The position numbers and the translations under genes are program-made. From NCBI GenBank assembly GCA_964503885.1, contig CAZDCD010000008.1:82088-146087 (forward strand): DNA of 64,000 bases, in the 5' to 3' direction. Position 1 is the stretch's first letter, and every line of letters starts with the position of its first letter. The notes below the pieces were generated by a model that was not told the origin of the DNA, searched no databases, and saw only the letters and a program-made list of their open reading frames with translations. This document shows positions 4,332 through 47,225 of this stretch, one piece after another. This stretch comes from an uncultured Bacteroidales bacterium. Lineage in GTDB: Bacteria; Bacteroidota; Bacteroidia; Bacteroidales; UBA10428.

Positions 4332-6058
4332 TTTTTATCTTGTAAAAGCTCAATTTGTCCTTTTATCGTGTCATTTTCTCCATCGATTTTTGAAGCCTTC
4401 CTGAAAACCTCCAATGCTTCTCTCCTTTTATTTAACTTTATCAATATTTCTCCATAATGTTGAAGAATTTCGGTATTTTGGGCCTTATTATATTTAATGG
4501 CTTTTTCAATGTAGCGTTTTGCTTGTTTAATTAATCCCATTTTAAATAAAATCCATCCGTATGTATCAAGATACGTAGAATTGTCGGGATCATTTGTTAG
4601 TGTATTTTTACTTAATTCTTTTGCCCTGAGTAAATTTACCTCTCTCAAAGACAAATAATAGCTGTAATTATTTTTAAGCAGATCGTTGTTTTTATCCGTT
4701 AAAATTGCTTTCTCAAAATAATAATCACTGCTGTCATTCTTACCCATATCTTTATAGGTTTCAGCTATAAATCCATAAATTTGCGCTCTTTTTTTAATAT
4801 CAGATGTTAATATTTCAGCCGCTTTAAAGCTCACAATTGCATCCTCCTTCTCACCCTTTCCGGCTAATGCTAATCCTTTAAAAACAAATATATTTTGATT
4901 TCCCCCAAATTTTATTGTTGCCTTATCGGAATATGCAATCACCGAATCATTTCTTCCAAGAACATTTTCAGTATAAATAATTCTTTCCCATATCGAATAT
5001 TCATCAGGATTGTTCTTTAGCAACAGTTTTAAATCTTTTGATACTATATCATAATTTTCTAATTTAGTATTCAGATCTACACTTAAAGTAATCAAATCTA
5101 TATCTTCACCATATTCCAGCTTAGCAATTTTAATATATTGTTCAATATCAAGACCCTTAGATTCCAGTTGTAAGCATTTTTCAATAAAACTATATAGAAT
5201 TCCTATTTTTTTGCTTTTTTCGATCTCCGGATCCATAAAAATTTTTTTGAATACCGAATCTGCCTTGTTGCCATTTCCTGATTGCAATAAGAAGTCTCCA
5301 TAAGATAGCAAAAGCCTGATATCTTCAGGATGATCATGTAAAACAGCAAGGTATTGCTTCTTGGCTCTACTAAAAAATCCAAGCTGAACAAAATCTTCTG
5401 CAAGCAATCCTTTAAAATCAAGGTTATCAGAATACATTTCTGAACCTTTATCCAGAATATCTATAGCTCTTTTCTTTCTTCCTAAATTTTTGTAAACATC
5501 ATGAGTTAAAAATAGTATTCGTTCATTAATTCCATATTCCTTTGTTATAGCTTTTGCTATCTTTAAAGCCTTCTTAAATTCTTTTGCTTCATTATATAAC
5601 AAAGCAAGGTTATACCAATTTTCAACATTTCCTGTATTCAGCTTCACAATTTTCCTATAAACCAATATCGTACTGTCAAGATTATGGCTAAGCTGATACA
5701 ATGAAGCAAGGTGATACAAATACCAAATATTTTGTTTATCGTTTTTAATTGCAATCCTGGCAAATACTTTGGCTGACTCAATATTGCCAGTCCTCATTAA
5801 TATATTTGAAACCTGGAAATAAGCTGCCGAATTTTTTGGATTATGTTGAATACATATCTGATACAATTTTAAGGCATCACTGAAGTCACTGAAAAGCGCC
5901 ATTTTAGTGGCTTCTGTAAATGCATAATAATATTCCAATTCCGTCACCTGATTATCAAAAGGAGATTTACTATCTTTTTGACCTCTTTTAATAACTCCGC
6001 ACCTGCAAATTATTAGTAGTAGTAGTAATAAAAATGCAATTTTTTTAATCGTTTTCAT
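4328..6058 (-). CDS. Tetratricopeptide-repeat protein, probable lipoprotein
   Basis: Signal peptide ending near Cys (IICRCG), many TPR-like helices, and the C-terminal NNYSYYL...YLDTYGWILF pattern of Bacteroidota TPR proteins next to dut. Confidence 0.8.
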   Translation of the reverse strand: MKTIKKIAFLLLLLLIICRCGVIKRGQKDSKSPFDNQVTELEYYYAFTEATKMALFSDFSDALKLYQICIQHNPKNSAAYFQVSNILMRTGNIESAKVFARIAIKNDKQNIWYLYHLASLYQLSHNLDSTILVYRKIVKLNTGNVENWYNLALLYNEAKEFKKALKIAKAITKEYGINERILFLTHDVYKNLGRKKRAIDILDKGSEMYSDNLDFKGLLAEDFVQLGFFSRAKKQYLAVLHDHPEDIRLLLSYGDFLLQSGNGNKADSVFKKIFMDPEIEKSKKIGILYSFIEKCLQLESKGLDIEQYIKIAKLEYGEDIDLITLSVDLNTKLENYDIVSKDLKLLLKNNPDEYSIWERIIYTENVLGRNDSVIAYSDKATIKFGGNQNIFVFKGLALAGKGEKEDAIVSFKAAEILTSDIKKRAQIYGFIAETYKDMGKNDSSDYYFEKAILTDKNNDLLKNNYSYYLSLREVNLLRAKELSKNTLTNDPDNSTYLDTYGWILFKMGLIKQAKRYIEKAIKYNKAQNTEILQHYGEILIKLNKRREALEVFRKASKIDGENDTIKGQIELLQDKK

Positions 6059-33537: not shown

Positions 33538-34290
33538 TTATTTGAAGCCATATCCCAGTCCGGCCTTAATCCTCAATCCCAACTGATAATAGTTTCTCCG
33601 AAAATCCATATCATAGTAATATCCCGCATATGGTGCGAAATCAACAAATAGCCATTTATTGATACGGGTATTTATTCCCCAGGATAAAGCAAATCCCGGA
33701 TAGAAGCTCAGATTATTATCTGAAGCAGGATTAATAGTTATGCTGTCGGTTAGGCTTTTAAGCTTCATGGAATGGAACCTTAATCCTGATAACGACAAAC
33801 CTATGTAACTCCCGTTGAAATTGTTTGCACTGATCTTGTTCCTGATTTCTGTTTTTTTACCATAGAAATATCTGAAAATAAGATTGGTGCTTGTAGTAAA
33901 GGAGTTATAGTAATCACCATTTTTTTGAAAAGAAAAGCTATTGGTTAATCCTGCAGACCAACAAGGATTTATCTTATGTTCAAAACTTAAACCGCTGGAG
34001 ATCAGAAAAACAGAATTTATCTTATCGGTAACTAATCGATACACATCATTATTCAAACCATAAATATAGCTTAAACCTATGAAATCGAGAGTTAACAGAT
34101 TTTTTTCTTCCACAAGGTTGTTGTTCAAATATTTATATTTCAACTTGTAGGTATAACCTGAAGAATCTACCGACACCTGGGTATATTCGAAAATTACCGT
34201 ATCATTTTGTGCTGACAAATTGCATAATATACTGCTGTTCATTATCAGGATTCCTGCTATGAAATAAATGTTGTATAGTTTCCTTTTCAT
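33538..34290 (-). CDS. Putative outer-membrane beta-barrel protein (DUF3575-like)
   Basis: Signal peptide, alternating aromatic/Gly beta-strand pattern, C-terminal LGLRIKAGLGYGF. ATG at 34290 overlaps the upstream stop. Confidence 0.6.
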   Translation of the reverse strand: MKRKLYNIYFIAGILIMNSSILCNLSAQNDTVIFEYTQVSVDSSGYTYKLKYKYLNNNLVEEKNLLTLDFIGLSYIYGLNNDVYRLVTDKINSVFLISSGLSFEHKINPCWSAGLTNSFSFQKNGDYYNSFTTSTNLIFRYFYGKKTEIRNKISANNFNGSYIGLSLSGLRFHSMKLKSLTDSITINPASDNNLSFYPGFALSWGINTRINKWLFVDFAPYAGYYYDMDFRRNYYQLGLRIKAGLGYGFK

Positions 34291-35186
34291 TTGTTGATTG
34301 AATTTATAGTAATTGGACAATATGATGTTTCAATAGTCATCGATGGATTTGACGGACTGAATGTAAGATAAAACCTTTGAATTTTAGATTCTCTGATTAT
34401 TTTCCCGGAATAATTACCAGGAAGATTTAACGAAGAATTTTGGGTTAACAGGGAATACGAATATTTGTCGAAACGGTCAACATTAATCGCTATTTCTGTT
34501 CTTGATGATTTAATCGTAAGTTTTTTCAGGTATATACCGGGATTAAAAGCAATATTCCCATAACTTGAAGTTATATCTACCGTATTGGAAATAACGCTGA
34601 AGTACAACTCAGAATTATCAGCTTTACATACAATTTTTGCATCACAACCTGAAAGTCGTGAGTCTGCATAATATGCGGTTAAATAAAGGGTGCCTTTAAT
34701 ATTGTTTAAAAAAACTTCACCGAAAGAATTTTTAACTGTACTTTCCTGATTGAGATTACTTATAGTGATATTACCGTAAAGATTTTCTACCTTAACTATG
34801 GATTGTTCAGGGAGATGCACAATGAATTTTACACTAAGATTACTGGTAATTCTGACATTATGCGTGGATAGAAATGAATTCGACAGCATTATTTTGTTGT
34901 CTTTTTTAACTAAAGTATAGTTCATAAATTGGATATCTTTTTCAGCTTTAACTTTTTCGGGATTTTTAGCAATCAGCTGGATCTCTATTTTAACACTATT
35001 ATTCTTCCAGCCTGTTAGAATTATATCCGATTTTTCACCTTTGATCTGTAAATACGGTATTTCGGAAATGGCATATTCTTTACTTATGATCTTTTTCAGC
35101 ACATGAATTTTTTCCTGTGCAAAAATATTTACACCGGTATTCACAAGAGCTGCAGTAATCACCAAATAATTTAAGTAATTTCTCAT
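34287..35186 (-). CDS. Exported beta-strand-repeat protein (DUF4097/adhesin-like)
   Basis: Signal peptide; repeated NxYGNITI / NSFGEV / SSYGNI strands. Confidence 0.62.
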   Translation of the reverse strand: MRNYLNYLVITAALVNTGVNIFAQEKIHVLKKIISKEYAISEIPYLQIKGEKSDIILTGWKNNSVKIEIQLIAKNPEKVKAEKDIQFMNYTLVKKDNKIMLSNSFLSTHNVRITSNLSVKFIVHLPEQSIVKVENLYGNITISNLNQESTVKNSFGEVFLNNIKGTLYLTAYYADSRLSGCDAKIVCKADNSELYFSVISNTVDITSSYGNIAFNPGIYLKKLTIKSSRTEIAINVDRFDKYSYSLLTQNSSLNLPGNYSGKIIRESKIQRFYLTFSPSNPSMTIETSYCPITINSINK

Positions 35187-35782
35187 GACCGTATGGTTTT
35201 GAGTACATCCTTGATCAGGCCTGCTCGCTGATTTTCCATTTTAATCAGTGTCTTGATCAATGAAGAAGACTCTCCGTAATTGAGCATAATATTGTTAATG
35301 CGTCTGATTTCGGCATTCAGTTCATCGATTTTCTGCATTTTAAATGATGTAACAGGATCACTGCAATTATTTGCCGACCGTGCACACCATTTTTGTAGAA
35401 AATCAGCCGGATTATCAACTCCCTGTGTTATTTGACAGGGTTCGGAAACTATATATTCTTCGCTGTAAAGTGTTTTGGTATTTGCCTGATTTTTAAAAAG
35501 GTAGAAAGAAATAATCAGCAATAAAGTTACTGCCGCACTCAGAGAAGTGACGGACAGATAGATTCTTTTTCTTTTTAGCTGAACATGTGGAACTATTCCC
35601 TTTTCAATATTAGCCCATAGATCCGGGCTATAATTTACCCATGTGGATTCTTTTGCTTTTATTTTAAGGGTTTCATCAAAATCAAGCCAATCCGATATTT
35701 TTTCCCACAGATTTTCATCCGGAGTATAGCCATGCAAAGCCTTTCTTACCTGTACAAGTTTAGATTCAAAATTATCTTTCAT
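35183..35782 (-). CDS. Putative membrane anti-sigma factor
   Basis: Overlaps the ECF sigma gene; cytoplasmic PDENLWEKI-type repeats, one transmembrane helix, C-terminal helical domain. Confidence 0.65.
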   Translation of the reverse strand: MKDNFESKLVQVRKALHGYTPDENLWEKISDWLDFDETLKIKAKESTWVNYSPDLWANIEKGIVPHVQLKRKRIYLSVTSLSAAVTLLLIISFYLFKNQANTKTLYSEEYIVSEPCQITQGVDNPADFLQKWCARSANNCSDPVTSFKMQKIDELNAEIRRINNIMLNYGESSSLIKTLIKMENQRAGLIKDVLKTIRS

Positions 35783-36299
35783 ATCCGTACATTTCTTTCA
35801 GATATTTCTTTAGTAGCTTTTTTGCGTAAAAGAGTTGAGATTTTGAAGTTCCATCTGATATTTCAAGCATATTTGCTACTTCTTTATGTTTATACCCCTC
35901 TACCTCAACGAGTAAAAAAATTGTCCTGTTCCCTGTCGGTAAAGAGCTGATTGCCTTATCCAGGTCTTCTGCTGTAAATTCCTGATTGAATTTGGGTTCG
36001 CTTACATGATGGTTGGTTTCTATCAACTCGAATTTTTTTACCGTTTTCAGGTGTCTTATGGTTTTTCTTATAACAATGGTTTTCATCCAGCTATATAGCG
36101 AACTCTCATTTCTGAAATCCTTCAGGTCCCTGAATATTTCAATAAAACTATCCTGAATAATATCATGAGCCTGATCATAATCATTAAGCATCCGAAATGC
36201 AACAGTATACATTGCTTTGGCATACTTATCAAATAATGCTTTTTGGGCTAACCGGTTATTGCTGATGCATTCTCTTATGATCAACCTGTCTTCAGACAT
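35772..36299 (-). CDS. ECF-type RNA polymerase sigma-70 factor
   Basis: AQKALFDKY, DIIQDSFIEIF, SWMKTIV, RTIFLLVEVEGYKHKEVA, GTSKSQL. Confidence 0.93.
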   Translation of the reverse strand: MSEDRLIIRECISNNRLAQKALFDKYAKAMYTVAFRMLNDYDQAHDIIQDSFIEIFRDLKDFRNESSLYSWMKTIVIRKTIRHLKTVKKFELIETNHHVSEPKFNQEFTAEDLDKAISSLPTGNRTIFLLVEVEGYKHKEVANMLEISDGTSKSQLFYAKKLLKKYLKEMYGYER

Positions 36300-38935: not shown

Positions 38936-40045
38936 TTAGCCTATCTTCTTGTACACTTTCCCGGGCAGACATCTGATAAGTCCGTTAAATTCAAGATTAA
39001 TTAAGATGTAAGCGATCTTGCTCACCGGCAGATTGCATTGAATGGCGATCTGATCTATGGTCAGGTCGTTTTTCACTGCAAGCGCATCCACCACCATTTT
39101 TTCATCTTCGGATAATTCAATGAAGAGTATTGATTGAGCAGGTGCTGATTTACTGTCAATCTGCCAGCCCATGATATATTCGAGGTCGGTCACATCCTCA
39201 ATCAGGGCTGCTTTATTTGTTTTGATAAGTTTATTACAACCTGCCGAGTATTTGTCTTTTATCCTGCCCGGGAATGCAAATACATCACGGTTGTAAGAAT
39301 TGGCCAGGTCGGCGGTAATGAGCGCTCCCCCTTTTTCACCTGATTCAACAACCACGGTTGCATCGCACAAACCCGCGATTATGCGGTTCCGCTTTACAAA
39401 ATTCGGGGGCTCGGGGGTTTCATCATGTAGAAATTCGGAAACTAGAGCCCCGTTTTCTATAATTGATTGGGCTGTGCTTTTATGCAGCGAGGGATACAGT
39501 GAATTTAAGCCATGCCCTAACACGGCAACAGTTTCAAAGTTGTTTTTCAGTGCTGCCTTATGAGCACAAATGTCAATACCATATGCCAATCCACTGACTA
39601 TTACAATATCGTGTCCTCTGGCAGAAAGATTCTCCACGAGGGTGTTGCACATGCGGCGCCCGTATTCGGTAGCACTTCGGGTCCCCACTATACCAATGAC
39701 TTTGGGACAATTGAAACGCGCATTTCCTTCTTCGTAAAGCACAACCGGCGCATCTTCACATTGTTTCAACCGGTGCGGATAGTTGTCATCGAGGTAAAAA
39801 AGTGTGCGAATGGCACTTCGTTCTAAATATTCAATTTCCCGGTCGGCCTTGTCGAGCATAATGTCCGGATTGAGGTTGCCGATCAGTTTTTCTCCGATTC
39901 CCGGTATTTTCAACAGGTTTTTCTTTTTTTCATGAAATACCCCCTCCAGTCCGCCACAATAGGCGATCAACCGTTTTGCAAGAACAGGACCGATTTTAGG
40001 AATTAAACTGATGCCGATTTTATATCTCAATAACGGGTCAGGCAT
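38936..40045 (-). CDS. dprA: DNA-processing protein DprA
   Basis: YPHRL, IVGTR, VSGLAYGID, VLGHG, FVKRNRIIAG, GGALITA, C-terminal winged helix. Start set at ATG 40045. Confidence 0.96.
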   Translation of the reverse strand: MPDPLLRYKIGISLIPKIGPVLAKRLIAYCGGLEGVFHEKKKNLLKIPGIGEKLIGNLNPDIMLDKADREIEYLERSAIRTLFYLDDNYPHRLKQCEDAPVVLYEEGNARFNCPKVIGIVGTRSATEYGRRMCNTLVENLSARGHDIVIVSGLAYGIDICAHKAALKNNFETVAVLGHGLNSLYPSLHKSTAQSIIENGALVSEFLHDETPEPPNFVKRNRIIAGLCDATVVVESGEKGGALITADLANSYNRDVFAFPGRIKDKYSAGCNKLIKTNKAALIEDVTDLEYIMGWQIDSKSAPAQSILFIELSEDEKMVVDALAVKNDLTIDQIAIQCNLPVSKIAYILINLEFNGLIRCLPGKVYKKIG

Positions 40046-40052
40046 ATAAAGA

Positions 40053-40919
40053 CTAAGGATTTTCCGATGATTTTTCAATTAACGTGATAATTTTCTCATA
40101 TTGACCGGCAATTTTTTTTCTTTTTCTGGCTATTGCTATTTTTTCTGCATTCTGATACCCCCCCTGGTAATATCTCTGAAACCAGGGTAATACCGATATG
40201 CCTGCATCTATAAACGTATAATGCGCTGCAGTATTGATGAACAAAAAAATCAATCCCCCGGTCAGTAAAAATGAGTTTAGCGCCCCTTTGAAATCTCCGT
40301 ACACCAGTTGCCCGGTTCCGGGAATGATCATACTTAATGTGCGTGCAGTCTTGGGATTGTATCTTTTTGTATATTTTTTAAGATCATCAAATGCCTGCGT
40401 TAATTTTTCAATAGTCTGTGCATCATTTGAATCAATACATGCTTTAAACCAGTTAAGTGACTCATCAAAATCTTCTTTCTGATAGAAGGCGATGCCCAGG
40501 TAAAATGATTTTCTCTTGCGGAAGTAATCATCCTCAGGATTTTTCATGCCATACAATTCTACCAATGCATAATTGTATTGCCCATCCAGCAGATATAACG
40601 AAGAAGTATACAATGAAAGTTCGTGCCTGATGCTGTCGGAAGATGTAAGATTATATGCCATCTTGAGAAATTCTCTCGCTTTGGTAAAATCCGAATTGGA
40701 TACATAACAATAAGCAAGTTTTTCGCAGGCTTCGAATGTATTTGAGCGTATGGTATCGAAGAAAAGCACACGGTGGTAAGCGGCAATGGCCTCGTCAATA
40801 TTTCCCTGGGCCATCTGGGCATTAGCCAGATGCAAAGTCTGCCAGGCATTTTGTGCCTGTGAAACCTGTACTAATAACAGGATTATAATACTATTCAAAA
40901 GAATTGAATACGTCTTCAA
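40053..40919 (-). CDS. TPR protein with C-terminal membrane hairpin (DUF5683/TM2-like)
   Basis: Signal peptide, TPR helices, LSMIIPGTGQLVYG followed by two hydrophobic segments. TTG start. Confidence 0.7.
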   Translation of the reverse strand: MKTYSILLNSIIILLLVQVSQAQNAWQTLHLANAQMAQGNIDEAIAAYHRVLFFDTIRSNTFEACEKLAYCYVSNSDFTKAREFLKMAYNLTSSDSIRHELSLYTSSLYLLDGQYNYALVELYGMKNPEDDYFRKRKSFYLGIAFYQKEDFDESLNWFKACIDSNDAQTIEKLTQAFDDLKKYTKRYNPKTARTLSMIIPGTGQLVYGDFKGALNSFLLTGGLIFLFINTAAHYTFIDAGISVLPWFQRYYQGGYQNAEKIAIARKRKKIAGQYEKIITLIEKSSENP

Positions 40920-41727
40920 CCTGATGATGCAATTTATGTCTGAATTCTACATTGTGCTGATTTGCTGCTTTTCCCGAACCGTATATATTCCCGATGTAAA
41001 AACCGAATGCAAGACCTCCGAATATCCAGCCATAGGCACTTTCAATACCGTTTTTATCAAATCCACGGTATGATTGAAAGCCAAATGCTCCGACAAATAA
41101 CAGCGACATTAAACCGTCTTTCCAGTATCCCGAATATATTTTCCCGGTGCCCGGTATTATGGCAGACATTAAAACACTTAGTCCCGGGCTCTTGTAGTTA
41201 AAGTTGTTTTCCTCATCAAGCAATACTGAATACGGAGCAATAAAATAACCTTCTGTCACCTTGTTTTGCTGTATCAATTCACGAGATGACTGGTACTTTT
41301 CAGATAGCATCAGGTTTGACAGGTTAAGGAATACCTTTTCGGTATGATCGAGATTCCCGTTCAATGTAATGAACTGATCAGCTTTATCAAATTCTTTATC
41401 TGCAATAAGAAGTTTTCCATATTCAATTGAAAATCCGGTCGGGATCTCTGATGCTGAAGGGTAAAACGATTCCGTTTTCTGAATTCCTGTTTTCAGTTTG
41501 CCTGAAAGCCTGTACGTGCGAATCAGAAGCAGCCGTGCTTCGATGTTTGAGCTGTCGAGAAAAATAATCCGTTCCAGTTCACTGGCAGCCAGGTCATATT
41601 CATGTGCTGTAAACAGGTAACCGGCAAATTTCATTGAATTTTCAAGATTATAAAGATCCTGTCCCGTAGCAGACAAAACAGGAAACATCAGCAGTATCAA
41701 AATTCCAAGCTTATTTAAGGATTTCAT
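40891..41727 (-). CDS. TPR protein with C-terminal membrane hairpin (DUF5683/TM2-like), paralog of the adjacent gene
   Basis: Signal peptide, TPR helices, KSPGLSVLMSAIIPGTGKIYSG plus two hydrophobic segments. Start set at ATG 41727. Confidence 0.7.
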   Translation of the reverse strand: MKSLNKLGILILLMFPVLSATGQDLYNLENSMKFAGYLFTAHEYDLAASELERIIFLDSSNIEARLLLIRTYRLSGKLKTGIQKTESFYPSASEIPTGFSIEYGKLLIADKEFDKADQFITLNGNLDHTEKVFLNLSNLMLSEKYQSSRELIQQNKVTEGYFIAPYSVLLDEENNFNYKSPGLSVLMSAIIPGTGKIYSGYWKDGLMSLLFVGAFGFQSYRGFDKNGIESAYGWIFGGLAFGFYIGNIYGSGKAANQHNVEFRHKLHHQVEDVFNSFE

Positions 41728-42124
41728 ATTTAAAATTCCTCGGAGGGTCAATGAGAACGTGGTGTTCAATATCAATATCATAATTTTCGGGACTCAATCC
41801 ATTGCACCGGGAAAACCGGTCGAAGAAGTTTATTGTGCCAATGATGGCTCCCTGCTTCTTAATCGATAACATGGCATACTCTGAACAGGATGGGGTAAAC
41901 GTACAGGAACTGGCGTCCTGTGAGGAAATGAAATTCTTATAAAATAAGAACAGCCGCGTAAAAATAAACTCTACTTCATTTTTAAAGGTCCGTGCATATT
42001 CATATTTATTCGCCGTACCAACAGATTGATATAGATTCTTGAATTTATCAATATCTTCTGCGGTCTGGGAGTGAACCGTAAAACTAATAAGCAGGAACAG
42101 GGAAATCGTAATAATATTTTTCAT
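41711..42124 (-). CDS. YidD-like protein (membrane protein insertion efficiency factor / haemolytic domain) with N-terminal signal peptide
   Basis: CTFTPSCSEYA...G...RFSRCN matches the YidD three-Cys pattern; N-terminus MKNIITISLFLLISFTVHSQ. Confidence 0.8.
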   Translation of the reverse strand: MKNIITISLFLLISFTVHSQTAEDIDKFKNLYQSVGTANKYEYARTFKNEVEFIFTRLFLFYKNFISSQDASSCTFTPSCSEYAMLSIKKQGAIIGTINFFDRFSRCNGLSPENYDIDIEHHVLIDPPRNFKYEILK

Positions 42125-42764
42125 TCAGGTTATTCAGTTTAATGTTTTCAAAGGTAGTAACCTGGTAGGTTTTTTGCTCGCCTGTATACGAAATTTTTAT
42201 CATTTTGGTGGGGAAATCAATTCCGTTGATGATTTTGTAATCCTCAAAAAACTGTTTACCAACGATTTGACCTTCAGGGCTATAGAATATAATGCCGAAT
42301 AACCTGTTCTCTTTGGATGACAACATCACTTTCCCAAAGTGTTTACTGAATCTCTTCCCGGGTACCCAGGTGGAGATCACCATGCCACCATCGTTTTCCA
42401 CATTGTCGATCTTATAAAATGAATTATCAAGCCCGTAATTGCTCAATTTATTGCTGAGTGTGAGATAAAAAATGGAAAATTTTGTCAGATCAACGCTGCG
42501 AGTGCGGCTTGCCAGTGTATCTCCCAAAAAATAGTACAATACAGTATCCTTTGAAACGACCACCTGTTTTTCAGGAAAGGAAATAGCATACACAAGCTTA
42601 CCGATATTTTTATCATAATAAAACCGGCCGATGGTTAATTGAGATTGCATTTCGGTCTTTTCTTTTACAGAAATATCGCCCTCAATCCTAAAAAAATGTT
42701 GCCCAAAAGCAATTTTGGGCAACACCATTAAAAAAATATAAATGAATAAAATTCTGTAAATCAT
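42084..42764 (-). CDS. Exported beta-rich protein, possibly LolA-like fold
   Basis: Signal peptide (start ATG 42764), ~200-aa mature domain of alternating beta strands, C-terminal Y..IxGIxFPT...IS...TTFENIKLN...YYDF pattern. The fold call is inference. Confidence 0.5.
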   Translation of the reverse strand: MIYRILFIYIFLMVLPKIAFGQHFFRIEGDISVKEKTEMQSQLTIGRFYYDKNIGKLVYAISFPEKQVVVSKDTVLYYFLGDTLASRTRSVDLTKFSIFYLTLSNKLSNYGLDNSFYKIDNVENDGGMVISTWVPGKRFSKHFGKVMLSSKENRLFGIIFYSPEGQIVGKQFFEDYKIINGIDFPTKMIKISYTGEQKTYQVTTFENIKLNNLNEKYYYDFPVPAY

Positions 42765-42768
42765 CTTT

Positions 42769-43227
42769 TTAGACAGCCCATAACCCGGCATTTCCAAAGA
42801 TCCACACATAGAATGCAACATAAAAGACAATTACAATCAGGTAGCCGACAACACAACCTTTGAAAGCCGTCATGGTTTCATCTTTGTCATCAGCAACGAA
42901 ATAAACGAGGGCAACTCCGAATACACCGAATACACAGCCCCACCAGAATGAACCTATTCCGAGAGGCGGTTCTCCGAAGGGAATAGCACTGGACAAAGGA
43001 TTGTTGACAGTGATTCCGGCAATCAACGGATTATTTTGTGCCAGCAGGTTGGTTAGTGTAACACCATCGTTACTTTTAACATAATTTTCCAGCAACGATA
43101 AGTTTGTGAACTCTTTATTCAGTTCATCCTTATCATAGCTGAACAAATCAGCATTGCCGGCAAATAAATTCCCTGCCGCAATCAGAACAATAAAGATCGA
43201 AGAAAGTAGGATTTTTTTCATAGCCAT
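42769..43227 (-). CDS. Hypothetical exported membrane protein with two C-terminal transmembrane segments
   Basis: Signal peptide, soluble N-terminal part, FWWGCVFGVFGVALVYFV and GCVVGYLIVIVFYVAFYVW. Confidence 0.75.
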   Translation of the reverse strand: MAMKKILLSSIFIVLIAAGNLFAGNADLFSYDKDELNKEFTNLSLLENYVKSNDGVTLTNLLAQNNPLIAGITVNNPLSSAIPFGEPPLGIGSFWWGCVFGVFGVALVYFVADDKDETMTAFKGCVVGYLIVIVFYVAFYVWIFGNAGLWAV

Positions 43228-43412
43228 GATTATTAATTAATAACCCTCAAATTTAATATTTTTCAGGAATTATACACATAATCAGGAAATTTTAGAACGA
43301 TTTTAAATTAATCCGATAATTTTTTTTAACTAAAAATGTAACTTATTTTTAAAATTCCCATATAACACGTAGTAATTCATTTTTAACTGGTTATTAATTT
43401 AAATTTTTGAGT

Positions 43413-43955
43413 ATGAAAAAAATTACTATGAAATTATTAGTTGTGATTGCCGGGCTTGTGATTAGCTGCTCGATTTTCGCACAGAAAAAAAATGCCATCA
43501 AAGTGAATATTTTTAGTCCGATTGTAAGAACCGGTTCGTTTTTTTATGAAAGGGCTTTAAGCGATGGAGCAAGTGCACAGTTAGGATTTTTTTATACCGG
43601 CTATAAAGTTTCTGACACTAAATTTTCAGGGTATGGTATTACACCTGAATTCCGGTTTTACCCTTCCAGGAATGAAGATATGAAAGGTTTTTACCTGGCT
43701 CCTTTCTTGCGTTATCAAAGCTTTAGCCTTTCAGATGAGTTAAACAATGAAGCTACCTTTTCATCATTTGGCGGCGGCGTGTTAATCGGAGGCCAGTTTT
43801 TATTTGGAAATATTGTAACACTAGATATATTTATAGGTCCTGCATACAACTCCGGGAGTACCAAGGTTAAATCAGGAAGTGCAGATACTTTCTCACTCGG
43901 ATCTTTTGATGGCTTTGGTGTAAGGCCAGGAGTCACTGTTGGTATTGCATTTTAA
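43413..43955 (+). CDS. Small outer-membrane beta-barrel protein (DUF3575-like)
   Basis: Signal peptide, AIKVNIFSP, YERAL, PEFRFY, GFYLAPF, C-terminal GVTVGIAF. Confidence 0.75.
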   Translation: MKKITMKLLVVIAGLVISCSIFAQKKNAIKVNIFSPIVRTGSFFYERALSDGASAQLGFFYTGYKVSDTKFSGYGITPEFRFYPSRNEDMKGFYLAPFLRYQSFSLSDELNNEATFSSFGGGVLIGGQFLFGNIVTLDIFIGPAYNSGSTKVKSGSADTFSLGSFDGFGVRPGVTVGIAF

Positions 43956-45169: not shown

Positions 45170-45487
45170 TTACAACATTCCCAGTTCAAGCCTGGCCTCA
45201 TCTGACAGCATGGACTGGTCCCACGGAGGATCAAAAACCAGTTCAACTTCTGCACCGTTCACACCGTCAAGGGCAGCGACCTTTTCCTTAACCTCCAAGG
45301 GAAGCTGATCGGCGACCGGACAATTGGGAGCGGTTAAGGTCATGGTTATCCTGGCTGTATTGTTTTCGTCAAGCTCAATATCATACACCAGCCCCAGGTC
45401 GTAAATATTCACCGGGATCTCAGGGTCATAGATGTTTTTAAGCACCTGAACTATATCGGTTTCTATCTGAAGAAGATTGTTTTCCAT
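45170..45487 (-). CDS. sufT: SufT/DUF59 Fe-S cluster assembly protein
   Basis: YDPEIPVNIYDLGLVY, MTLTAPNCP, VFDPPW. Start set at ATG 45487. Confidence 0.9.
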   Translation of the reverse strand: MENNLLQIETDIVQVLKNIYDPEIPVNIYDLGLVYDIELDENNTARITMTLTAPNCPVADQLPLEVKEKVAALDGVNGAEVELVFDPPWDQSMLSDEARLELGML

Positions 45488-45500
45488 ACTCCTTTCCTTT

Positions 45501-45938
45501 TCACTTTTCCGACTTATTATACTTGGTATCATAGGCTATAGCATACAGCTTCATTTGTTTGATCATTGCAAGCAAACCGTTCGACCGGGTAGGCGAAAGA
45601 TTCTGACGCAGGCCAATTCTTTCTATAAAATAAAGATCGGAGTTCATGATCTCCCCGGGTTTTCTGCCGGACAATACTCGTATCAGCAAGCTAATTATGC
45701 CTTTGGTGATTATGGCATCGCTGTCAGCAGTAAATCTCACAATACCGTCATCGAATTCGGCATTTAACCATACTTTCGACTGGCAACCGTTAATAAGGTA
45801 TTCGTTGTTCTTATATTTCGGATCGATAAGGGGCAGATCATTACTCAGTTCAATCAGGTAATTGTATTTATCCATCCAATCGTCAAATACCTCGAATTCA
45901 GCTATAATATCATTCTGTATATCGTTCAATTCCTTCAC
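45501..45938 (-). CDS. sufE: Cysteine desulfuration protein SufE
   Basis: DWMDKYNYLI, GCQSKVW, ADSDAIITKGI, LSPTRSNGL. GTG start at 45938 is inferred. Confidence 0.92.
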   Translation of the reverse strand: MKELNDIQNDIIAEFEVFDDWMDKYNYLIELSNDLPLIDPKYKNNEYLINGCQSKVWLNAEFDDGIVRFTADSDAIITKGIISLLIRVLSGRKPGEIMNSDLYFIERIGLRQNLSPTRSNGLLAMIKQMKLYAIAYDTKYNKSEK

Positions 45939-46001
45939 CTGGTTTAACAATGATAATATAAACAAGTTCGAATTTAATGAAAAAAATTCACAGGGTTTCA
46001 T

Positions 46002-47225
46002 TCAGCCCAGCATCTGTTTCACTTTTGCCAAAGCGCGTATAAGGGCATCGATATCTTCTTTGTTATTGTATAACGCAATAGAAGCACGAATGTTTCCCTG
46101 GATACCATAGTGTTGCATCAGAGGCTGAGCGCAATGGGTACCGGTCCTCACTGCAACACCCATTTTATCCATGATCATTCCTGCATCAAGAGGGTGAATA
46201 GTTCCGATAAGAAACGAGAGAATAGACGATTTATGTGCTGATCTGCCGAAAATCCGAATGTCACCGAATTCATCGAGCCTTGAGGTAGCGTAATCCAATA
46301 TGTTGGTTTCATGGGCTGATATATTTTTGAGGCCAAGGTTCAATAGATAATCAATGGCAACACCCAGTCCTATGGCACCCACAAAATTCATGGTTCCGGC
46401 TTCAAACTTAAAGGGAATCTGGTTATAGGTGGTTTTTTCAAAGGTTACCACATCCACCATATCACCTCCCCCCTGGTATGGAGGCAATTCTTCGAGCCAT
46501 TTTTCTTTTCCATAAAGTACGCCGATACCTGTGGGACCATACATTTTATGGCCTGAAAAAACCAGGAAATCACACCCGGTTTTTAACACGTCAAGAGGCA
46601 TGTGCTGAACAGACTGTGCCGCATCAATAAGCACCGGTATATTATAACGGTGTGCAACCGCAATGATTTCTTCAATAGGATTAATCGTACCTAAAACATT
46701 TGAGACATGAATCACCGAAACCAGCTTTGTTTTTTTTGATATCAGCTTTTCAAATTCGTCCATCATCAGGTCCCCGTCATCGGTTATCGGTGTAATCCTG
46801 AGCCGTGCACCTTTACGTTCACAGAGCATCTGCCATGGAACAATATTGGCATGGTGTTCCATTGCCGAAACAATAATCTCATCTCCTTCATGAATATACT
46901 TTTCCCCGAACGAAAAGGCCAGCGCATTTATCGAACCGGTAGCGCCACTGGTAAATACTATTTCATGAGAATTGGCAGCGCCGATGTATTTCTGTACTTT
47001 TGAACGGGCATTTTCATAATCTTCGGTAGCCAGCTCGCTCAGATGATGAACACCCCTGTGGATGGTGCTGTAATGTTTCCGGTGGTATTCATTTATTATG
47101 TTGATCACAGGCAGAGGTTTCTGTGTAGTTGCACCGTTATCGAGGTAAACAAGCGGATAATTATAGATTTTTTCCTGAAGTATGGGAAAATCTTTTCGTA
47201 TCTCAGTCACATTGAAGTTCACCAC
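46002..47225 (-). CDS. sufS: Cysteine desulfurase SufS
   Basis: YLDNGATTQKP, EHHANIVPW, DAAQ, FSGHKMYGPTG, EAGT, RTGTHCAQP. Confidence 0.96.
   Translation of the reverse strand: MVNFNVTEIRKDFPILQEKIYNYPLVYLDNGATTQKPLPVINIINEYHRKHYSTIHRGVHHLSELATEDYENARSKVQKYIGAANSHEIVFTSGATGSINALAFSFGEKYIHEGDEIIVSAMEHHANIVPWQMLCERKGARLRITPITDDGDLMMDEFEKLISKKTKLVSVIHVSNVLGTINPIEEIIAVAHRYNIPVLIDAAQSVQHMPLDVLKTGCDFLVFSGHKMYGPTGIGVLYGKEKWLEELPPYQGGGDMVDVVTFEKTTYNQIPFKFEAGTMNFVGAIGLGVAIDYLLNLGLKNISAHETNILDYATSRLDEFGDIRIFGRSAHKSSILSFLIGTIHPLDAGMIMDKMGVAVRTGTHCAQPLMQHYGIQGNIRASIALYNNKEDIDALIRALAKVKQMLG

What the first reader, a model, noticed from the sequence alone, without database searches (positions are those of the whole stretch)
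38936..43227. Six-gene coupled operon: membrane protein, LolA-like, YidD-like, two TPR-hairpin paralogs, dprA
Seen: all on the minus strand, with junction gaps of 4 and 7 bp or overlaps of 41, 17 and 29 bp. The first five products all have signal peptides, and none has an assignable catalytic function. Established: YidD assists YidC-dependent insertion, LolA folds shuttle hydrophobic cargo, DprA loads incoming ssDNA. Inference: a dedicated envelope assembly machine, with the 152-aa protein as possible cargo, the LolA-like and YidD-like proteins as chaperones, and the TPR-hairpin pair as scaffold or pore. It may serve DNA uptake or a surface structure.
Basis: partly seen in the sequence, partly recalled or inferred. 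Interest (0 to 1): 0.72.

Follow-up and report, generated by a model that had tools for sequence, protein, structure and literature searches.

The report
Conserved Bacteroidota envelope operon, unknown function
The first five genes form a self-contained, uncharacterised envelope module conserved across Bacteroidota (an abundant small membrane protein plus four low-level exported helpers: a LolA-fold protein, an exported YidD-domain protein and two TPR membrane paralogs), while dprA is only a lineage-specific neighbour.

Summary
The six minus-strand genes and their junctions (gap 4, overlaps 41/17/29, gap 7) are exactly as described. Fold or family calls hold: the g2 AlphaFold model matches LolA-superfamily structures, g3 passes the YidD models, g4/g5 are true paralogs, and g6 is dprA.

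In 80 related loci from several Bacteroidota orders, g1-g5 stay colinear. g2-g5 are nearly always overlap-coupled. dprA follows in only 7 of 63 loci, so the DNA-uptake idea is unsupported.

New observations:
- The small protein gene is often present in two or three tandem copies. In a paralogous second system, small TM2-domain proteins that share its N-terminal motif take its place.
- A terminator-like hairpin with a T-run follows the small gene in 45 of 56 loci. In the window it lies inside the g2 coding sequence, and its stem shows compensatory changes.
- In six metatranscriptomes of a relative, only g1 RNA is recovered at appreciable depth.

Best reading: g1 is an abundant client or major subunit, and g2-g5 are a dedicated, ATP-independent periplasmic-side assembly machine. 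No name or paper that I could search assigns a function. The mechanism is inferred, not shown.

The parts
43248..43255 (-). TAAATTTG, a match to the Bacteroidetes -7 promoter consensus TAnnTTTG, 21 nt upstream of the g1 ATG in the AT-rich divergent intergenic region
   Evidence: One search gives the position. The motif is not enriched in the window (71 found, 75.8 expected), so this is only suggestive. The consensus itself is from my own knowledge.
42769..43227 (-). g1: a 152-aa small envelope protein with a signal peptide, an acidic periplasmic N-domain of about 60 aa (family mean net charge -8.5) and a Gly-rich two-helix membrane hairpin (PLGIPSFxWGC...TDxDxxETKKALxGC). It is the proposed abundant client or major subunit.
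   Evidence: No Pfam or NCBIfam family matches. There are 503 representative clusters at 50 % identity; the 150 listed are 103-214 aa and match over nearly their full length. Copy number is 1-3 per locus.
42686..42726 (-). Terminator-like RNA hairpin (13-14 bp stem, loop UUGC) followed by a U-run. It lies inside the g2 coding sequence (codons 13-26, ...LPKIAFGQHFFR). It is the proposed partial terminator or mRNA boundary that sets g1 far above g2-g5.
   Evidence: dG -19.9 kcal/mol, z = -5.0, 0 of 200 shuffles fold as well. An equivalent hairpin occurs in 45 of 56 loci, against 8 of 56 shuffled segments and 0-3 at the other junctions. Six of 13 stem pairs show compensatory changes and 97 % of cells are paired. 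RNA boundary seen in a relative.
42084..42764 (-). g2: a 226-aa exported protein with the LolA fold. It has no lipobox, so it should be soluble in the periplasm.
   Evidence: AlphaFold2 model, pLDDT 90.3. Foldseek hits: 3buu (LolA superfamily) E = 2.5e-11, then 4z48, 9tp6 (LolA3 of P. gingivalis), LolA, LolB and RseB. Sequence hits to LolA_like and DUF4292 are all below cut-off.
41711..42124 (-). g3: a 137-aa exported YidD-domain protein, built as signal peptide, about 30-aa linker, then a complete YidD core with the three Cys (C74, C80, C107).
   Evidence: Its start overlaps the g2 end in 55 of 64 loci. The highest hydrophobic-moment stretch (residues 41-66, muH 0.41-0.47) lies at the start of the YidD core.
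40891..41727 (-). g4: a 278-aa protein with a signal peptide, a TPR-like periplasmic domain and a C-terminal PGxGK motif followed by two Gly/aromatic-rich membrane segments (DUF5683-like).
40053..40919 (-). g5: a 288-aa paralog of g4 with a signal peptide, four TPR-like helix pairs, a PGxGQ motif, one clear membrane helix (210-233) and a long basic C-terminal helix.
   Evidence: AlphaFold2 model pLDDT 95.1. Only generic TPR matches in the PDB.
38936..40045 (-). dprA (369 aa; HhH, DprA Rossmann-like and winged-helix domains). Probably co-transcribed here (7-bp gap), but it is a lineage-specific neighbour and not part of the conserved module.

Best explanation
g1-g5 form a self-contained extracytoplasmic module of Bacteroidota. 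dprA is a neighbour only.

Shown:
- The five genes are colinear across several orders.
- g2-g5 are overlap-coupled.
- g2 has a LolA fold.
- g3 is a complete YidD domain behind a signal peptide.
- g4 and g5 are TPR paralogs with a DUF5683-like membrane end.
- The small-protein gene varies in copy number and in type: either g1-type or TM2-type, and the two types share an N-terminal motif.
- A conserved terminator-like hairpin follows the small-protein gene.
- In a relative, g1 RNA far exceeds RNA of the other four genes.

Inferred:
- g1 is made in large excess and is the client or major subunit.
- After Sec export, the periplasmic TPR domains of a membrane-anchored g4/g5 pair capture the acidic N-terminal helix of g1.
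- The LolA-fold protein shields hydrophobic surface, either the Gly-rich hairpin of g1 or lipid.
- The exported YidD-domain protein works on a membrane surface from the periplasmic side, helping the hairpin to insert, leave or oligomerise.
- None of the five proteins matched an ATPase, transporter or enzyme family, so the process would be chaperone-like and driven by binding.
- The end product is an abundant small-protein assembly in the envelope. Whether that is the inner membrane, the outer membrane or the surface is unknown.
For: - Conservation: a scan seeded with g3 found 558 relatives. The best 80 loci come from Bacteroidales, Chitinophagales, Cytophagales, Flavobacteriales, Saprospiraceae and 'Chlorobiota' MAGs. 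Of these, 54 carry all five genes and 66 carry g2-g5 in order. Most loci that seem to lack g1 have a divergent small gene of the same build, a signal peptide plus a hairpin, just upstream.
- Coupling: overlaps occur at g2/g3 in 55 of 64 loci, g3/g4 in 48 of 69 and g4/g5 in 67 of 72.
- Flanks are not conserved.
- Folds. Families.
- A paralogous second system (g2'-g3'-g4', plus g5' wherever the contig reaches it) lies in the same loci as TM2-domain small proteins in L017, L040, L049 and L060; in L060 the TM2 gene sits immediately upstream of g2'.
- g1-type and TM2-type small proteins share the motif right after the signal peptide. hhalign gives probability 97 % with signal peptides and 88-91 % (E about 1e-6) without them.
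- Hairpin.
- RNA, from L038 (a Jiulongibacter sp. MAG): six of six metatranscriptome runs hold g1 contigs at depth 2.4-13. Four of these end at the same base, 12 nt past the stop codon. g2 appears weakly in one run and g3-g5 in none. DNA runs assemble straight through the region.
Against: - No interaction, localisation or phenotype data exist for any member.
- No multimer prediction was possible.
- The RNA evidence comes from one distant relative and from assembled contigs, whose depth is a poor measure of expression.
- The common RNA end lies 8 nt upstream of the hairpin, not after the U-run. The boundary may therefore reflect processing or a cDNA limit rather than termination.
- The membrane segments of g4 are only weakly hydrophobic, so its location is uncertain.
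- Profile comparison found no homology between the small-protein hairpins and the g4/g5 membrane ends.
- LolA folds also bind lipids and pigments, so g2 need not bind protein.
Confidence: 0.45

Rival explanations
1. The module traffics a lipid or other hydrophobic small molecule. The LolA-fold protein would carry a lipid, pigment or lipoprotein acyl chains between the membranes. The YidD-domain protein would extract or insert it at the membrane surface. The TPR pair would serve as the dock. g1 would be an abundant membrane receptor or structural partner rather than cargo.
For: - g2 matches LolA, LolB, LolA3, DUF1329 and ependymin-type lipid binders.
- In Flavobacterium johnsoniae, the LolA2/LolB2 paralogs sit in the flexirubin operon, and LolA3 has no Lol function (PMC11885536; PMC13103446).
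- The module has no energy source, as expected of passive carriers.
Against: - No biosynthetic, acyltransferase or transporter gene is conserved next to the module.
- This reading does not explain why the small hairpin proteins vary in copy number and type together with the machine.
- It does not explain why they are set apart by a conserved hairpin and expressed in excess.
Confidence: 0.15
2. One reading: a six-gene DNA-uptake (competence) apparatus. g1-g5 would build an envelope conduit or surface structure for incoming DNA, and DprA would load the single strand.
For: In the window, dprA starts 7 bp after g5 with no terminator-like site between them. The same adjacency occurs in close relatives L001, L002 and L081/L082. 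In L058, L061, L062 and L078 the accessory comp4 gene lies between g5 and dprA; in L064 the 849-bp gap was not examined.
Against: - dprA lies within 2.5 kb downstream in only 7 of 63 loci. It was not found within 2.5 kb in any locus labelled Cytophagales, Chitinophagales, Flavobacteriales or 'Chlorobiota'.
- No competence-pilus, ComEC or ComEA-like gene is linked.
- dprA is widespread in bacteria, including species not known to be transformable (my own knowledge).
Confidence: 0.04
3. The module is an envelope-stress sensor or regulatory device. A LolA/RseB-like protein would sense mislocalised lipid or protein, the TPR membrane proteins would transmit the signal, and g1 would be a regulated effector.
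For: RseB is among the fold matches of g2. An ECF sigma factor gene lies 2.6 kb downstream in the window (35772-36299).
Against: - No sigma, anti-sigma, kinase or protease gene is conserved with the module.
- The ECF sigma factor is not linked in other loci.
- None of the five proteins has a cytoplasmic signalling domain.
Confidence: 0.05
4. One stable hetero-oligomeric envelope complex in which g1 is simply the most numerous subunit, for example a ring or pore of Gly-rich hairpins held by the TPR pair. g2 and g3 would be permanent subunits rather than transient assembly factors.
For: The evidence is the same as for the best explanation. Overlap coupling of g2-g5 suggests fixed stoichiometry. 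Excess g1 would fit a homo-oligomeric core.
Against: With the present data this cannot be told apart from the client-and-machine model. g2 lacks any membrane anchor.
Confidence: 0.25

Closest known systems
Lol pathway carriers LolA/LolB, including the Bacteroidota paralogs LolA2/LolB2 (flexirubin operon) and LolA3 (function unknown)
   Same: g2 has the same unclosed beta-barrel fold with internal helices (Foldseek E from 2.5e-11 to 1e-6, TM-score 0.4-0.6). It has a type I signal peptide, as LolA does.
   Different: - Sequence identity is 8-19 %.
- No LolA Pfam or NCBIfam model is passed.
- A PDB profile search finds no LolA hit.
- No LolCDE gene is nearby.
- The partner genes (an exported YidD-domain protein and a TPR pair) are unknown for any Lol protein.
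- g2 is not an ortholog of LolA3 (10-11 % identity).
YidD, the membrane protein insertion efficiency factor of the rnpA-yidD-yidC operon in E. coli (Yu et al. 2011, listed in PMC8082313)
   Same: g3 contains the full YidD domain with its three conserved cysteines and passes PF01809 and TIGR00278.
   Different: - Canonical YidD is about 70-100 aa and acts at the cytoplasmic face of the inner membrane next to Sec/YidC (my own knowledge).
- g3 is 137 aa and has a cleavable-looking signal peptide with an invariant Gln at +1.
- g3 sits in a different, conserved gene context.
- It is therefore a paralog placed on the other side of the membrane. Public records name it YidD, which is probably misleading.
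YfgM-PpiD, membrane-anchored periplasmic chaperones at the SecYEG translocon (PMC8082313)
   Same: Like YfgM, g4 and g5 are membrane-anchored proteins with a TPR-like periplasmic domain and no enzymatic domain. g5 gives weak hits to the YfgM-type TPR_21 family (E = 1.8e-4 for the window protein; best 3.6e-6 among relatives).
   Different: - The anchor is C-terminal, behind a cleaved signal peptide, not an N-terminal transmembrane helix.
- There are two paralogs.
- The DUF5683-like membrane end has no counterpart in YfgM.
- No PpiD-like partner is present.
- Homology was not established.
Operons in which a highly expressed structural or precursor gene is separated from its assembly genes by a leaky terminator or mRNA boundary, such as pap/fim pilus operons and lantibiotic nisA-nisB (my own knowledge)
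   Same: The architecture is the same: one or more copies of a small gene, then a hairpin with a U-run, then tightly coupled machinery genes. RNA of the first gene is in large excess.
   Different: No component is homologous to those systems. In several lineages, including the window, the hairpin lies inside the coding sequence of the next gene. Termination itself has not been shown.
DUF5683 (PF18935) and TM2 (PF05154) membrane domains
   Same: The C-terminal ends of g4 and g5 carry the PGxGQxY-type motif. 30 of 44 g5 relatives and 7 of 46 g4 relatives hit DUF5683 at E < 0.01. The alternative small proteins are bona fide TM2 domain proteins.
   Different: The window proteins are below the DUF5683 cut-off (14.6 and 15.3 bits against 26.7). 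Both families are themselves of unknown function. No profile-level homology was found between the small-protein hairpins and the g4/g5 membrane ends.

Membership tests
LolA superfamily (fold level) | Unclosed antiparallel beta-barrel of about 11 strands with helices plugging a hydrophobic cavity | tested here: met
   AlphaFold2 model with pLDDT 90.3, 13 strands and central helices. Foldseek against the PDB: 93 matches at E <= 1e-3; the 50 listed are nearly all LolA, LolB, RseB, DUF1329 and related lipid-binding folds, with a top E of 2.5e-11.
LolA, the lipoprotein carrier (functional family) | Passes a curated LolA or LolA_like sequence model | tested here: not met
   PF17131 scores 16.7-17 bits against a cut-off of 30. 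No LolA model is hit in Pfam or NCBIfam. The PDB profile search finds no LolA.
LolA, the lipoprotein carrier (functional family) | Works with LolCDE and LolB; binds lipoprotein acyl chains | not testable with these tools
   No lolCDE or lolB gene lies in the 80 loci. Binding can only be tested experimentally.
YidD domain (PF01809 / TIGR00278) | Passes the curated models; three conserved cysteines | tested here: met
   63.3 bits (cut-off 27) and 56.7 bits (cut-off 40). C74, C80 and C107 are invariant in 28 relatives.
Canonical YidD ortholog (insertion efficiency factor) | Short protein of about 70-100 aa without a signal peptide, encoded in rnpA-yidD-yidC synteny | tested here: not met
   g3 is 137 aa with an N-terminal signal peptide and an invariant Q20. 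Its neighbours are g2 and g4 in the great majority of the 80 loci; no rnpA or yidC family recurs among the flanking genes.
TPR proteins | Tandem helix-turn-helix repeats that pass TPR models | tested here: met
   g5 scores 41.8 bits on TPR_2 (cut-off 27), and 37 of 44 relatives hit the model. The g5 model shows paired helices over residues 25-159. g4 is below cut-off alone but is a paralog of g5.
DUF5683 (PF18935) | Passes the Pfam gathering score | tested here: inconclusive
   The window g4 and g5 score 15.3 and 14.6 bits against a cut-off of 26.7. Many relatives carry a precomputed PF18935 hit, and 30 of 44 g5 relatives hit at E < 0.01.
DprA (TIGR00732) | Passes the equivalog model; has the DprA Rossmann-like and winged-helix domains | tested here: met
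   230.9 bits (cut-off 191.15); PF02481 E = 1.1e-75; DprA_WH E = 2e-9.
Competence / DNA-uptake machinery | Conserved co-occurrence of g1-g5 with dprA or other competence genes | tested here: not met
   dprA lies within 2.5 kb in 7 of 63 loci. No other competence gene recurs.
Intrinsic (factor-independent) terminator | GC-containing stem-loop followed directly by a U-run, conserved in position | tested here: met
   45 of 56 loci against 8 of 56 shuffled segments. Covariation in 6 of 13 stem pairs.
Intrinsic (factor-independent) terminator | Transcripts actually end in the U-run | tested here: inconclusive
   In L038 the RNA contigs end 8 nt before the hairpin rather than after it, and downstream RNA is scarce. 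Only contig data were available, not Term-seq.
Known anti-phage defence systems (PADLOC) | Any of g1-g5 matches a defence-system model | tested here: not met
   No match for g1-g4; g5 gives only a chance-level hit (Csn2, E = 5e-3). DprA matches the DprA-like ShosA and PsyrA models, as expected.

The most novel reading that the evidence does not exclude
The module is a new route of envelope protein biogenesis. Abundant small alpha-helical hairpin proteins (g1-type or TM2-type) would be recognised through a shared N-terminal helix. A LolA-fold chaperone together with a periplasm-facing YidD-domain protein would keep them out of, or extract them from, the inner membrane. They would then be installed in the outer membrane or in a surface layer. 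This would be a Lol-like pathway for helical membrane proteins rather than lipoproteins, and it would give the enigmatic YidD fold and bacterial TM2 domains a first testable role.
Probability: 0.12. Interest if true: 0.85.

Novelty: new variant of a known kind. Interest (0 to 1): 0.62.

Why it matters
- All five proteins are built from recognisable folds, yet this combination is not described in any paper or annotation I could search.
- An exported YidD domain contradicts the only role proposed for that family, which is at the cytoplasmic face next to YidC. Public records give these proteins the YidD name.
- The module links four orphan items: a new LolA-fold branch, the YidD fold, DUF5683-type membrane ends and bacterial TM2 proteins. 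They fall into one genetically defined unit that occurs in cultured species (Marivirga, Cyclobacterium, Emticicia, Jiulongibacter), in which gene knockouts could be attempted.
- The unit has a clear experimental handle: g1 is abundant and its fate can be followed.
- The terminator-like hairpin, maintained by compensatory changes inside a signal-peptide coding region, is an unusual regulatory solution in its own right.
- If the module handles helical membrane proteins on the periplasmic side, it would bear on how Bacteroidota build their envelope.

Tried and rejected
- **Defence system:** PADLOC found nothing for g1-g5.
- **Riboswitch or known RNA upstream or within:** Rfam returned only a chance snoRNA hit.
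- **g2 as an ortholog of Bacteroidota LolA3:** rejected. Identity to 9tp6 is 10-11 % and there is no sequence-profile hit.
- **g4/g5 membrane ends and the small-protein hairpins share a fold (a 'nucleator' idea):** hhalign probabilities are 8-18 % for the membrane parts, so this is not supported.
- **g1 as a T4SS-type pilin:** only 3 of 50 relatives give weak PF18895 hits (best E = 1.5e-3), typical of hydrophobic low-complexity matches.
- **Solved structures for g1 or g3 families:** none found.
- **Specific fold partner for g5:** only generic TPR matches.
- **Literature on DUF5683, YidD-like proteins, and the YidD, LolA, TM2 and YozV search terms:** nothing relevant.
- **RNA runs for the window itself and for a lineage with the hairpin inside the coding sequence (L012):** none available.
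- **Sigma-70-type promoter scan:** uninformative for Bacteroidota.
- **The accessory sixth gene ('comp4') and a second paralogous system:** both absent from the 64-kb window.

Full report
**Observation**

The window carries six consecutive minus-strand ORFs between 43227 and 38936. I read the junctions base by base.
- g1: 43227-42769.
- g2: ATG at 42764, ends 42084; gap of 4 bp after g1.
- g3: 42124-41711; 41-bp overlap with g2.
- g4: ATG at 41727, ends 40891; 17-bp overlap.
- g5: TTG at 40919, ends 40053; 29-bp overlap.
- dprA: ATG at 40045, ends 38936; gap of 7 bp.

The start choices for g2, g4 and g5 match what family alignments require. The public gene call for g2 (245 aa) starts further upstream and is probably too long.

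Upstream of g1 lies a 180-bp AT-rich divergent region, followed by a DUF3575 outer-membrane-barrel gene on the other strand. Downstream of dprA there is a 145-bp gap, then an epimerase-family gene and a class I/II aminotransferase gene.

**What the proteins are**

- **g3** passes the YidD models (PF01809 at 63.3 bits, TIGR00278 at 56.7 bits). It is 137 aa long. Its N-terminal hydrophobic segment ends in an invariant Gln. A linker of about 30 aa follows, then the full YidD core with three invariant cysteines.
- **g2** has only sub-threshold LolA_like and DUF4292 hits. Its AlphaFold2 model (pLDDT 90.3) nevertheless matches LolA-superfamily structures. The best hit is 3buu (E = 2.5e-11), followed by DUF1329, LolA3 of P. 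gingivalis, LolA, LolB and RseB. It is not an ortholog of LolA3, whose function is itself unknown.
- **g4 and g5** are true paralogs (hhalign probability 99.9 %, E = 4e-31).
- **g5** models at pLDDT 95.1. The model shows four TPR-like helix pairs, a short helix carrying the invariant PGxGQ motif, one clear membrane helix (210-233) and a 50-residue basic C-terminal helix. The PDB offers only generic TPR matches.
- **The membrane ends of g4 and g5** are DUF5683-like. The window proteins fall below the cut-off. However, 30 of 44 g5 relatives and 7 of 46 g4 relatives match at E < 0.01.
- **g1** has a signal peptide, a strongly acidic N-domain of about 60 aa (family mean net charge -8.5) and a Gly-rich two-helix hairpin. 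It belongs to no described family. It forms a compact family of 503 representative clusters; the 150 listed are small proteins of 103-214 aa.
- **g6** is a bona fide dprA.

Gln at +1 is conserved or the consensus residue in g2, g3, g4 and g5. That agrees with the Bacteroidetes Q-rule for signal peptidase I substrates (PMC5837995). No signal-peptide predictor was available.

**Conservation**

I scanned one genome per GTDB species with an alignment of long YidD relatives. It found at least 558 loci, of which the best 80 were kept. They come from the following groups:
- Bacteroidales, including MAGs labelled Porphyromonadaceae, Rikenellaceae, Lentimicrobiaceae and Marinilabiliales.
- Chitinophagales and Saprospiraceae.
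- Cytophagales: Marivirga, Cyclobacterium, Emticicia, Lacihabitans, Marinoscillum, Jiulongibacter, Leadbetterella and Algoriphagus.
- Flavobacteriales.
- Two 'Chlorobiota' MAGs.

tblastn with the window proteins shows g1-g2-g3-g4-g5 in the same order and strand in nearly all of them. Of the 80 loci, 54 have all five genes and 66 have g2-g5. Of the 26 incomplete loci, I examined 13 that keep upstream DNA: eight of these carry a divergent small gene of the same build just upstream. Several others are cut by contig ends.

Overlaps are conserved: g2/g3 in 55 of 64 loci, g3/g4 in 48 of 69 and g4/g5 in 67 of 72. The g1-g2 spacer has a median of 71 bp. Flanking genes differ from locus to locus.

dprA lies within 2.5 kb downstream of g5 in only 7 of 63 loci. 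In four of these, an accessory gene of about 300 aa (signal peptide plus helical repeats, here called 'comp4') sits in between. comp4 follows g5 in 21 of 67 loci and is absent from the window. The unit is therefore five genes, and dprA is a lineage-specific neighbour.

**The small protein is the variable part**

- g1 is present in one to three tandem copies.
- Some loci carry a variant hairpin type (FxWxxFAWGFCCxPVGFF).
- Four loci (L017, L040, L049, L060) hold a second, divergent set (g2'-g3'-g4', plus g5' in the three where the contig reaches that far), with the same gene order and overlaps.
- Small proteins with a signal peptide and a TM2 domain (PF05154, E down to 1.4e-8) lie in all four of those loci. 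They also occur in L030, L036 and L061. L033 has a longer TM2-like protein upstream of g3.
- The g1-type and TM2-type proteins share the segment right after the signal peptide (ADLFxYDxxxLxxEFxxLxxLE against KYKIxDxxVDxMFxxAxEV). hhalign gives 97 % with signal peptides and 88-91 % (E about 1e-6) without them.
- Their membrane hairpins differ, and neither resembles the g4/g5 membrane end at profile level.

A constant four-gene machine with an exchangeable, multi-copy small partner carrying a common N-terminal tag fits a client (or major subunit) and its assembly factors.

**A conserved RNA hairpin after the small gene**

The terminator scan found a 14-pair stem with a T-run at 42726-42695, inside codons 13-26 of g2. 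It folds at -19.9 kcal/mol, with z = -5.0 against shuffles.

| Segment scanned | Loci with a hairpin plus T-run | Of these, dG <= -14 |
|---|---|---|
| After the small gene (g1 to g2) | 45 of 56 | 35 |
| Same segments, dinucleotide-shuffled | 8 of 56 | 0 |
| g2/g3 junction | 0 of 55 | 0 |
| g3/g4 junction | 3 of 66 | 0 |
| g4/g5 junction | 2 of 70 | 0 |
| After g5 | 9 of 74 | 1 |

Where the spacer is long, the hairpin is intergenic. Where it is short (the window, L001, L002, L081, L004, L010, L012, L019, L007, L011), the hairpin lies inside the part of g2 that encodes the signal-peptide cleavage region. There the T-run is read as Phe-Phe-Arg.

An alignment of eight such sequences has 97 % of stem cells paired and compensatory double changes in 6 of 13 pairs. 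Slid controls give 35-48 % paired. In several multi-copy arrays (L040, L077, L017) only the last small gene carries the hairpin, in others more than one copy does, and it also follows TM2-type small genes.

**RNA evidence**

No RNA run holds the window itself, which comes from salt-marsh metagenomes.

For the relative L038 (a Jiulongibacter sp. MAG), the layout is: g1 at 4803-5246, hairpin at 5267-5298, U-run at 5301-5305 and the g2 ATG at 5312.
- Six of six metatranscriptome runs contain contigs of g1 at depth 2.4-13.
- Four of these contigs end at the same base, 5258. In one run, adapter sequence follows directly.
- g2 is seen weakly in one run (depth 4.5 and 2.3).
- g3-g5 are not seen at all.
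- Two DNA runs assemble through the hairpin in contigs of about 180 kb, so the break is not an assembler artefact.

Contig depth is a poor measure of expression, and this is one species. Still, the result agrees with g1 RNA being far more abundant and bounded at the hairpin region.

The common end lies 8 nt before the stem, which I cannot explain. It could be a processing site, or it could mark the limit of cDNA priming on a structured 3' end.

**Mechanism**

Shown:
- A conserved, coupled five-gene unit.
- All products have export signals.
- None of the five matched an ATPase, transporter or enzyme family.
- A LolA fold, a YidD domain and a TPR pair.
- A variable, highly expressed small partner.

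Inferred:
- After Sec export, the g4/g5 pair holds its TPR domains in the periplasm and binds the acidic N-terminal helix of g1.
- g2 shields hydrophobic surface.
- g3 keeps the amphipathic start of the YidD core (hydrophobic moment 0.41-0.47 at residues 41-66). It acts on a membrane surface from the periplasmic side.
- The result is an abundant assembly of small proteins somewhere in the envelope.

I give this model 0.45. A stable complex with g1 as its most numerous subunit gets 0.25 and cannot yet be told apart from it. Lipid or pigment trafficking gets 0.15, a sensor 0.05 and DNA uptake 0.04.

**Comparison and novelty**

The nearest known systems each share one feature and lack the rest:
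- Lol carriers share the fold only.
- Canonical YidD shares the domain only, and sits on the opposite side of the membrane.
- YfgM-PpiD shares the general idea only.
- Structural-gene-plus-attenuator operons share the architecture only.

Source names for homologs are 'hypothetical', 'TPR repeat protein', 'TM2 domain-containing protein YozV' and 'YidD'. Eight full-text literature searches found nothing on this unit.

I rate it a new variant of a known kind: a dedicated envelope assembly operon made from known folds in an undescribed combination. Its function is unproven.

Noticed in passing
window 42686-42726 (minus strand); equivalents in L001, L002, L004, L007, L010, L011, L012, L019, L081: A terminator-like hairpin with a U-run lies inside the g2 coding sequence, at the signal-peptide cleavage region. 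The U-run is read as Phe-Phe-Arg. Compensatory base changes maintain the stem across orders. In other lineages the same element is intergenic.
   Followed up: yes
L038:5258 (hairpin at 5267-5298): RNA contigs from four independent metatranscriptomes all end at the same base, 12 nt after the g1 stop codon and 8 nt before the hairpin. One has adapter sequence directly behind. I cannot say whether this is a processing site or a cDNA limit at a structured 3' end.
   Followed up: partly
L017:9690-12357, L049:1792-4764, L040:120-2323, L060:7728-10634: A second, divergent paralogous set (g2'-g3'-g4', with g5' where the contig extends far enough) sits in the same loci as the main system, alongside small TM2-domain proteins. 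The window (64 kb) has no such second set.
   Followed up: partly
For example L006:8222-9154, L007:8040-8972, L061:8024-8959: An accessory sixth gene of about 300 aa (signal peptide, helical, weak TPR hits) directly follows g5 in 21 of 67 loci. It sits between g5 and dprA in four of the seven loci that have dprA. It is absent from the window.
   Followed up: partly
window 43407-43955 (+): A divergently transcribed DUF3575 outer-membrane beta-barrel protein (E = 4e-11). A homolog lies upstream on the opposite strand in L002. Unrelated small beta-barrel-like proteins lie near the module in six other loci. The link is probably local synteny only.
   Followed up: partly
window 42764-42830; public protein P0121: The public gene call for g2 is 245 aa and starts inside g1. 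Family alignments support the ATG at 42764 (226 aa). Public records name g3-type proteins 'membrane protein insertion efficiency factor YidD', although they carry a signal peptide and have a different gene context.
   Followed up: yes
L081:8285-8809: In a relative whose g3 is 74 % identical (6.2-Mb contig), a NusG-family paralog lies 100 bp upstream of g1. It could be a dedicated antiterminator, which would be interesting given the hairpin. No such gene sits immediately upstream of g1 in the window, where the neighbour is the divergent DUF3575 gene.
   Followed up: no
window 42149-42156 (minus strand): A second TAnnTTTG match lies about 25 nt upstream of the g3 start, inside the g2 3' end. It could be an internal promoter or chance, since the motif is not enriched in the window.
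   Followed up: no
window 33538-36299 (minus strand): An ECF-type sigma factor gene (35772-36299) is followed by three ORFs without Pfam matches. This may be a sigma/anti-sigma unit. It is not linked to the module in other loci.
   Followed up: no
window 45170-47225 (minus strand): Fe-S assembly genes (FeS_assembly_P, SufE and a SufS-like class V aminotransferase) lie upstream of the module. They are ordinary housekeeping context.
   Followed up: no
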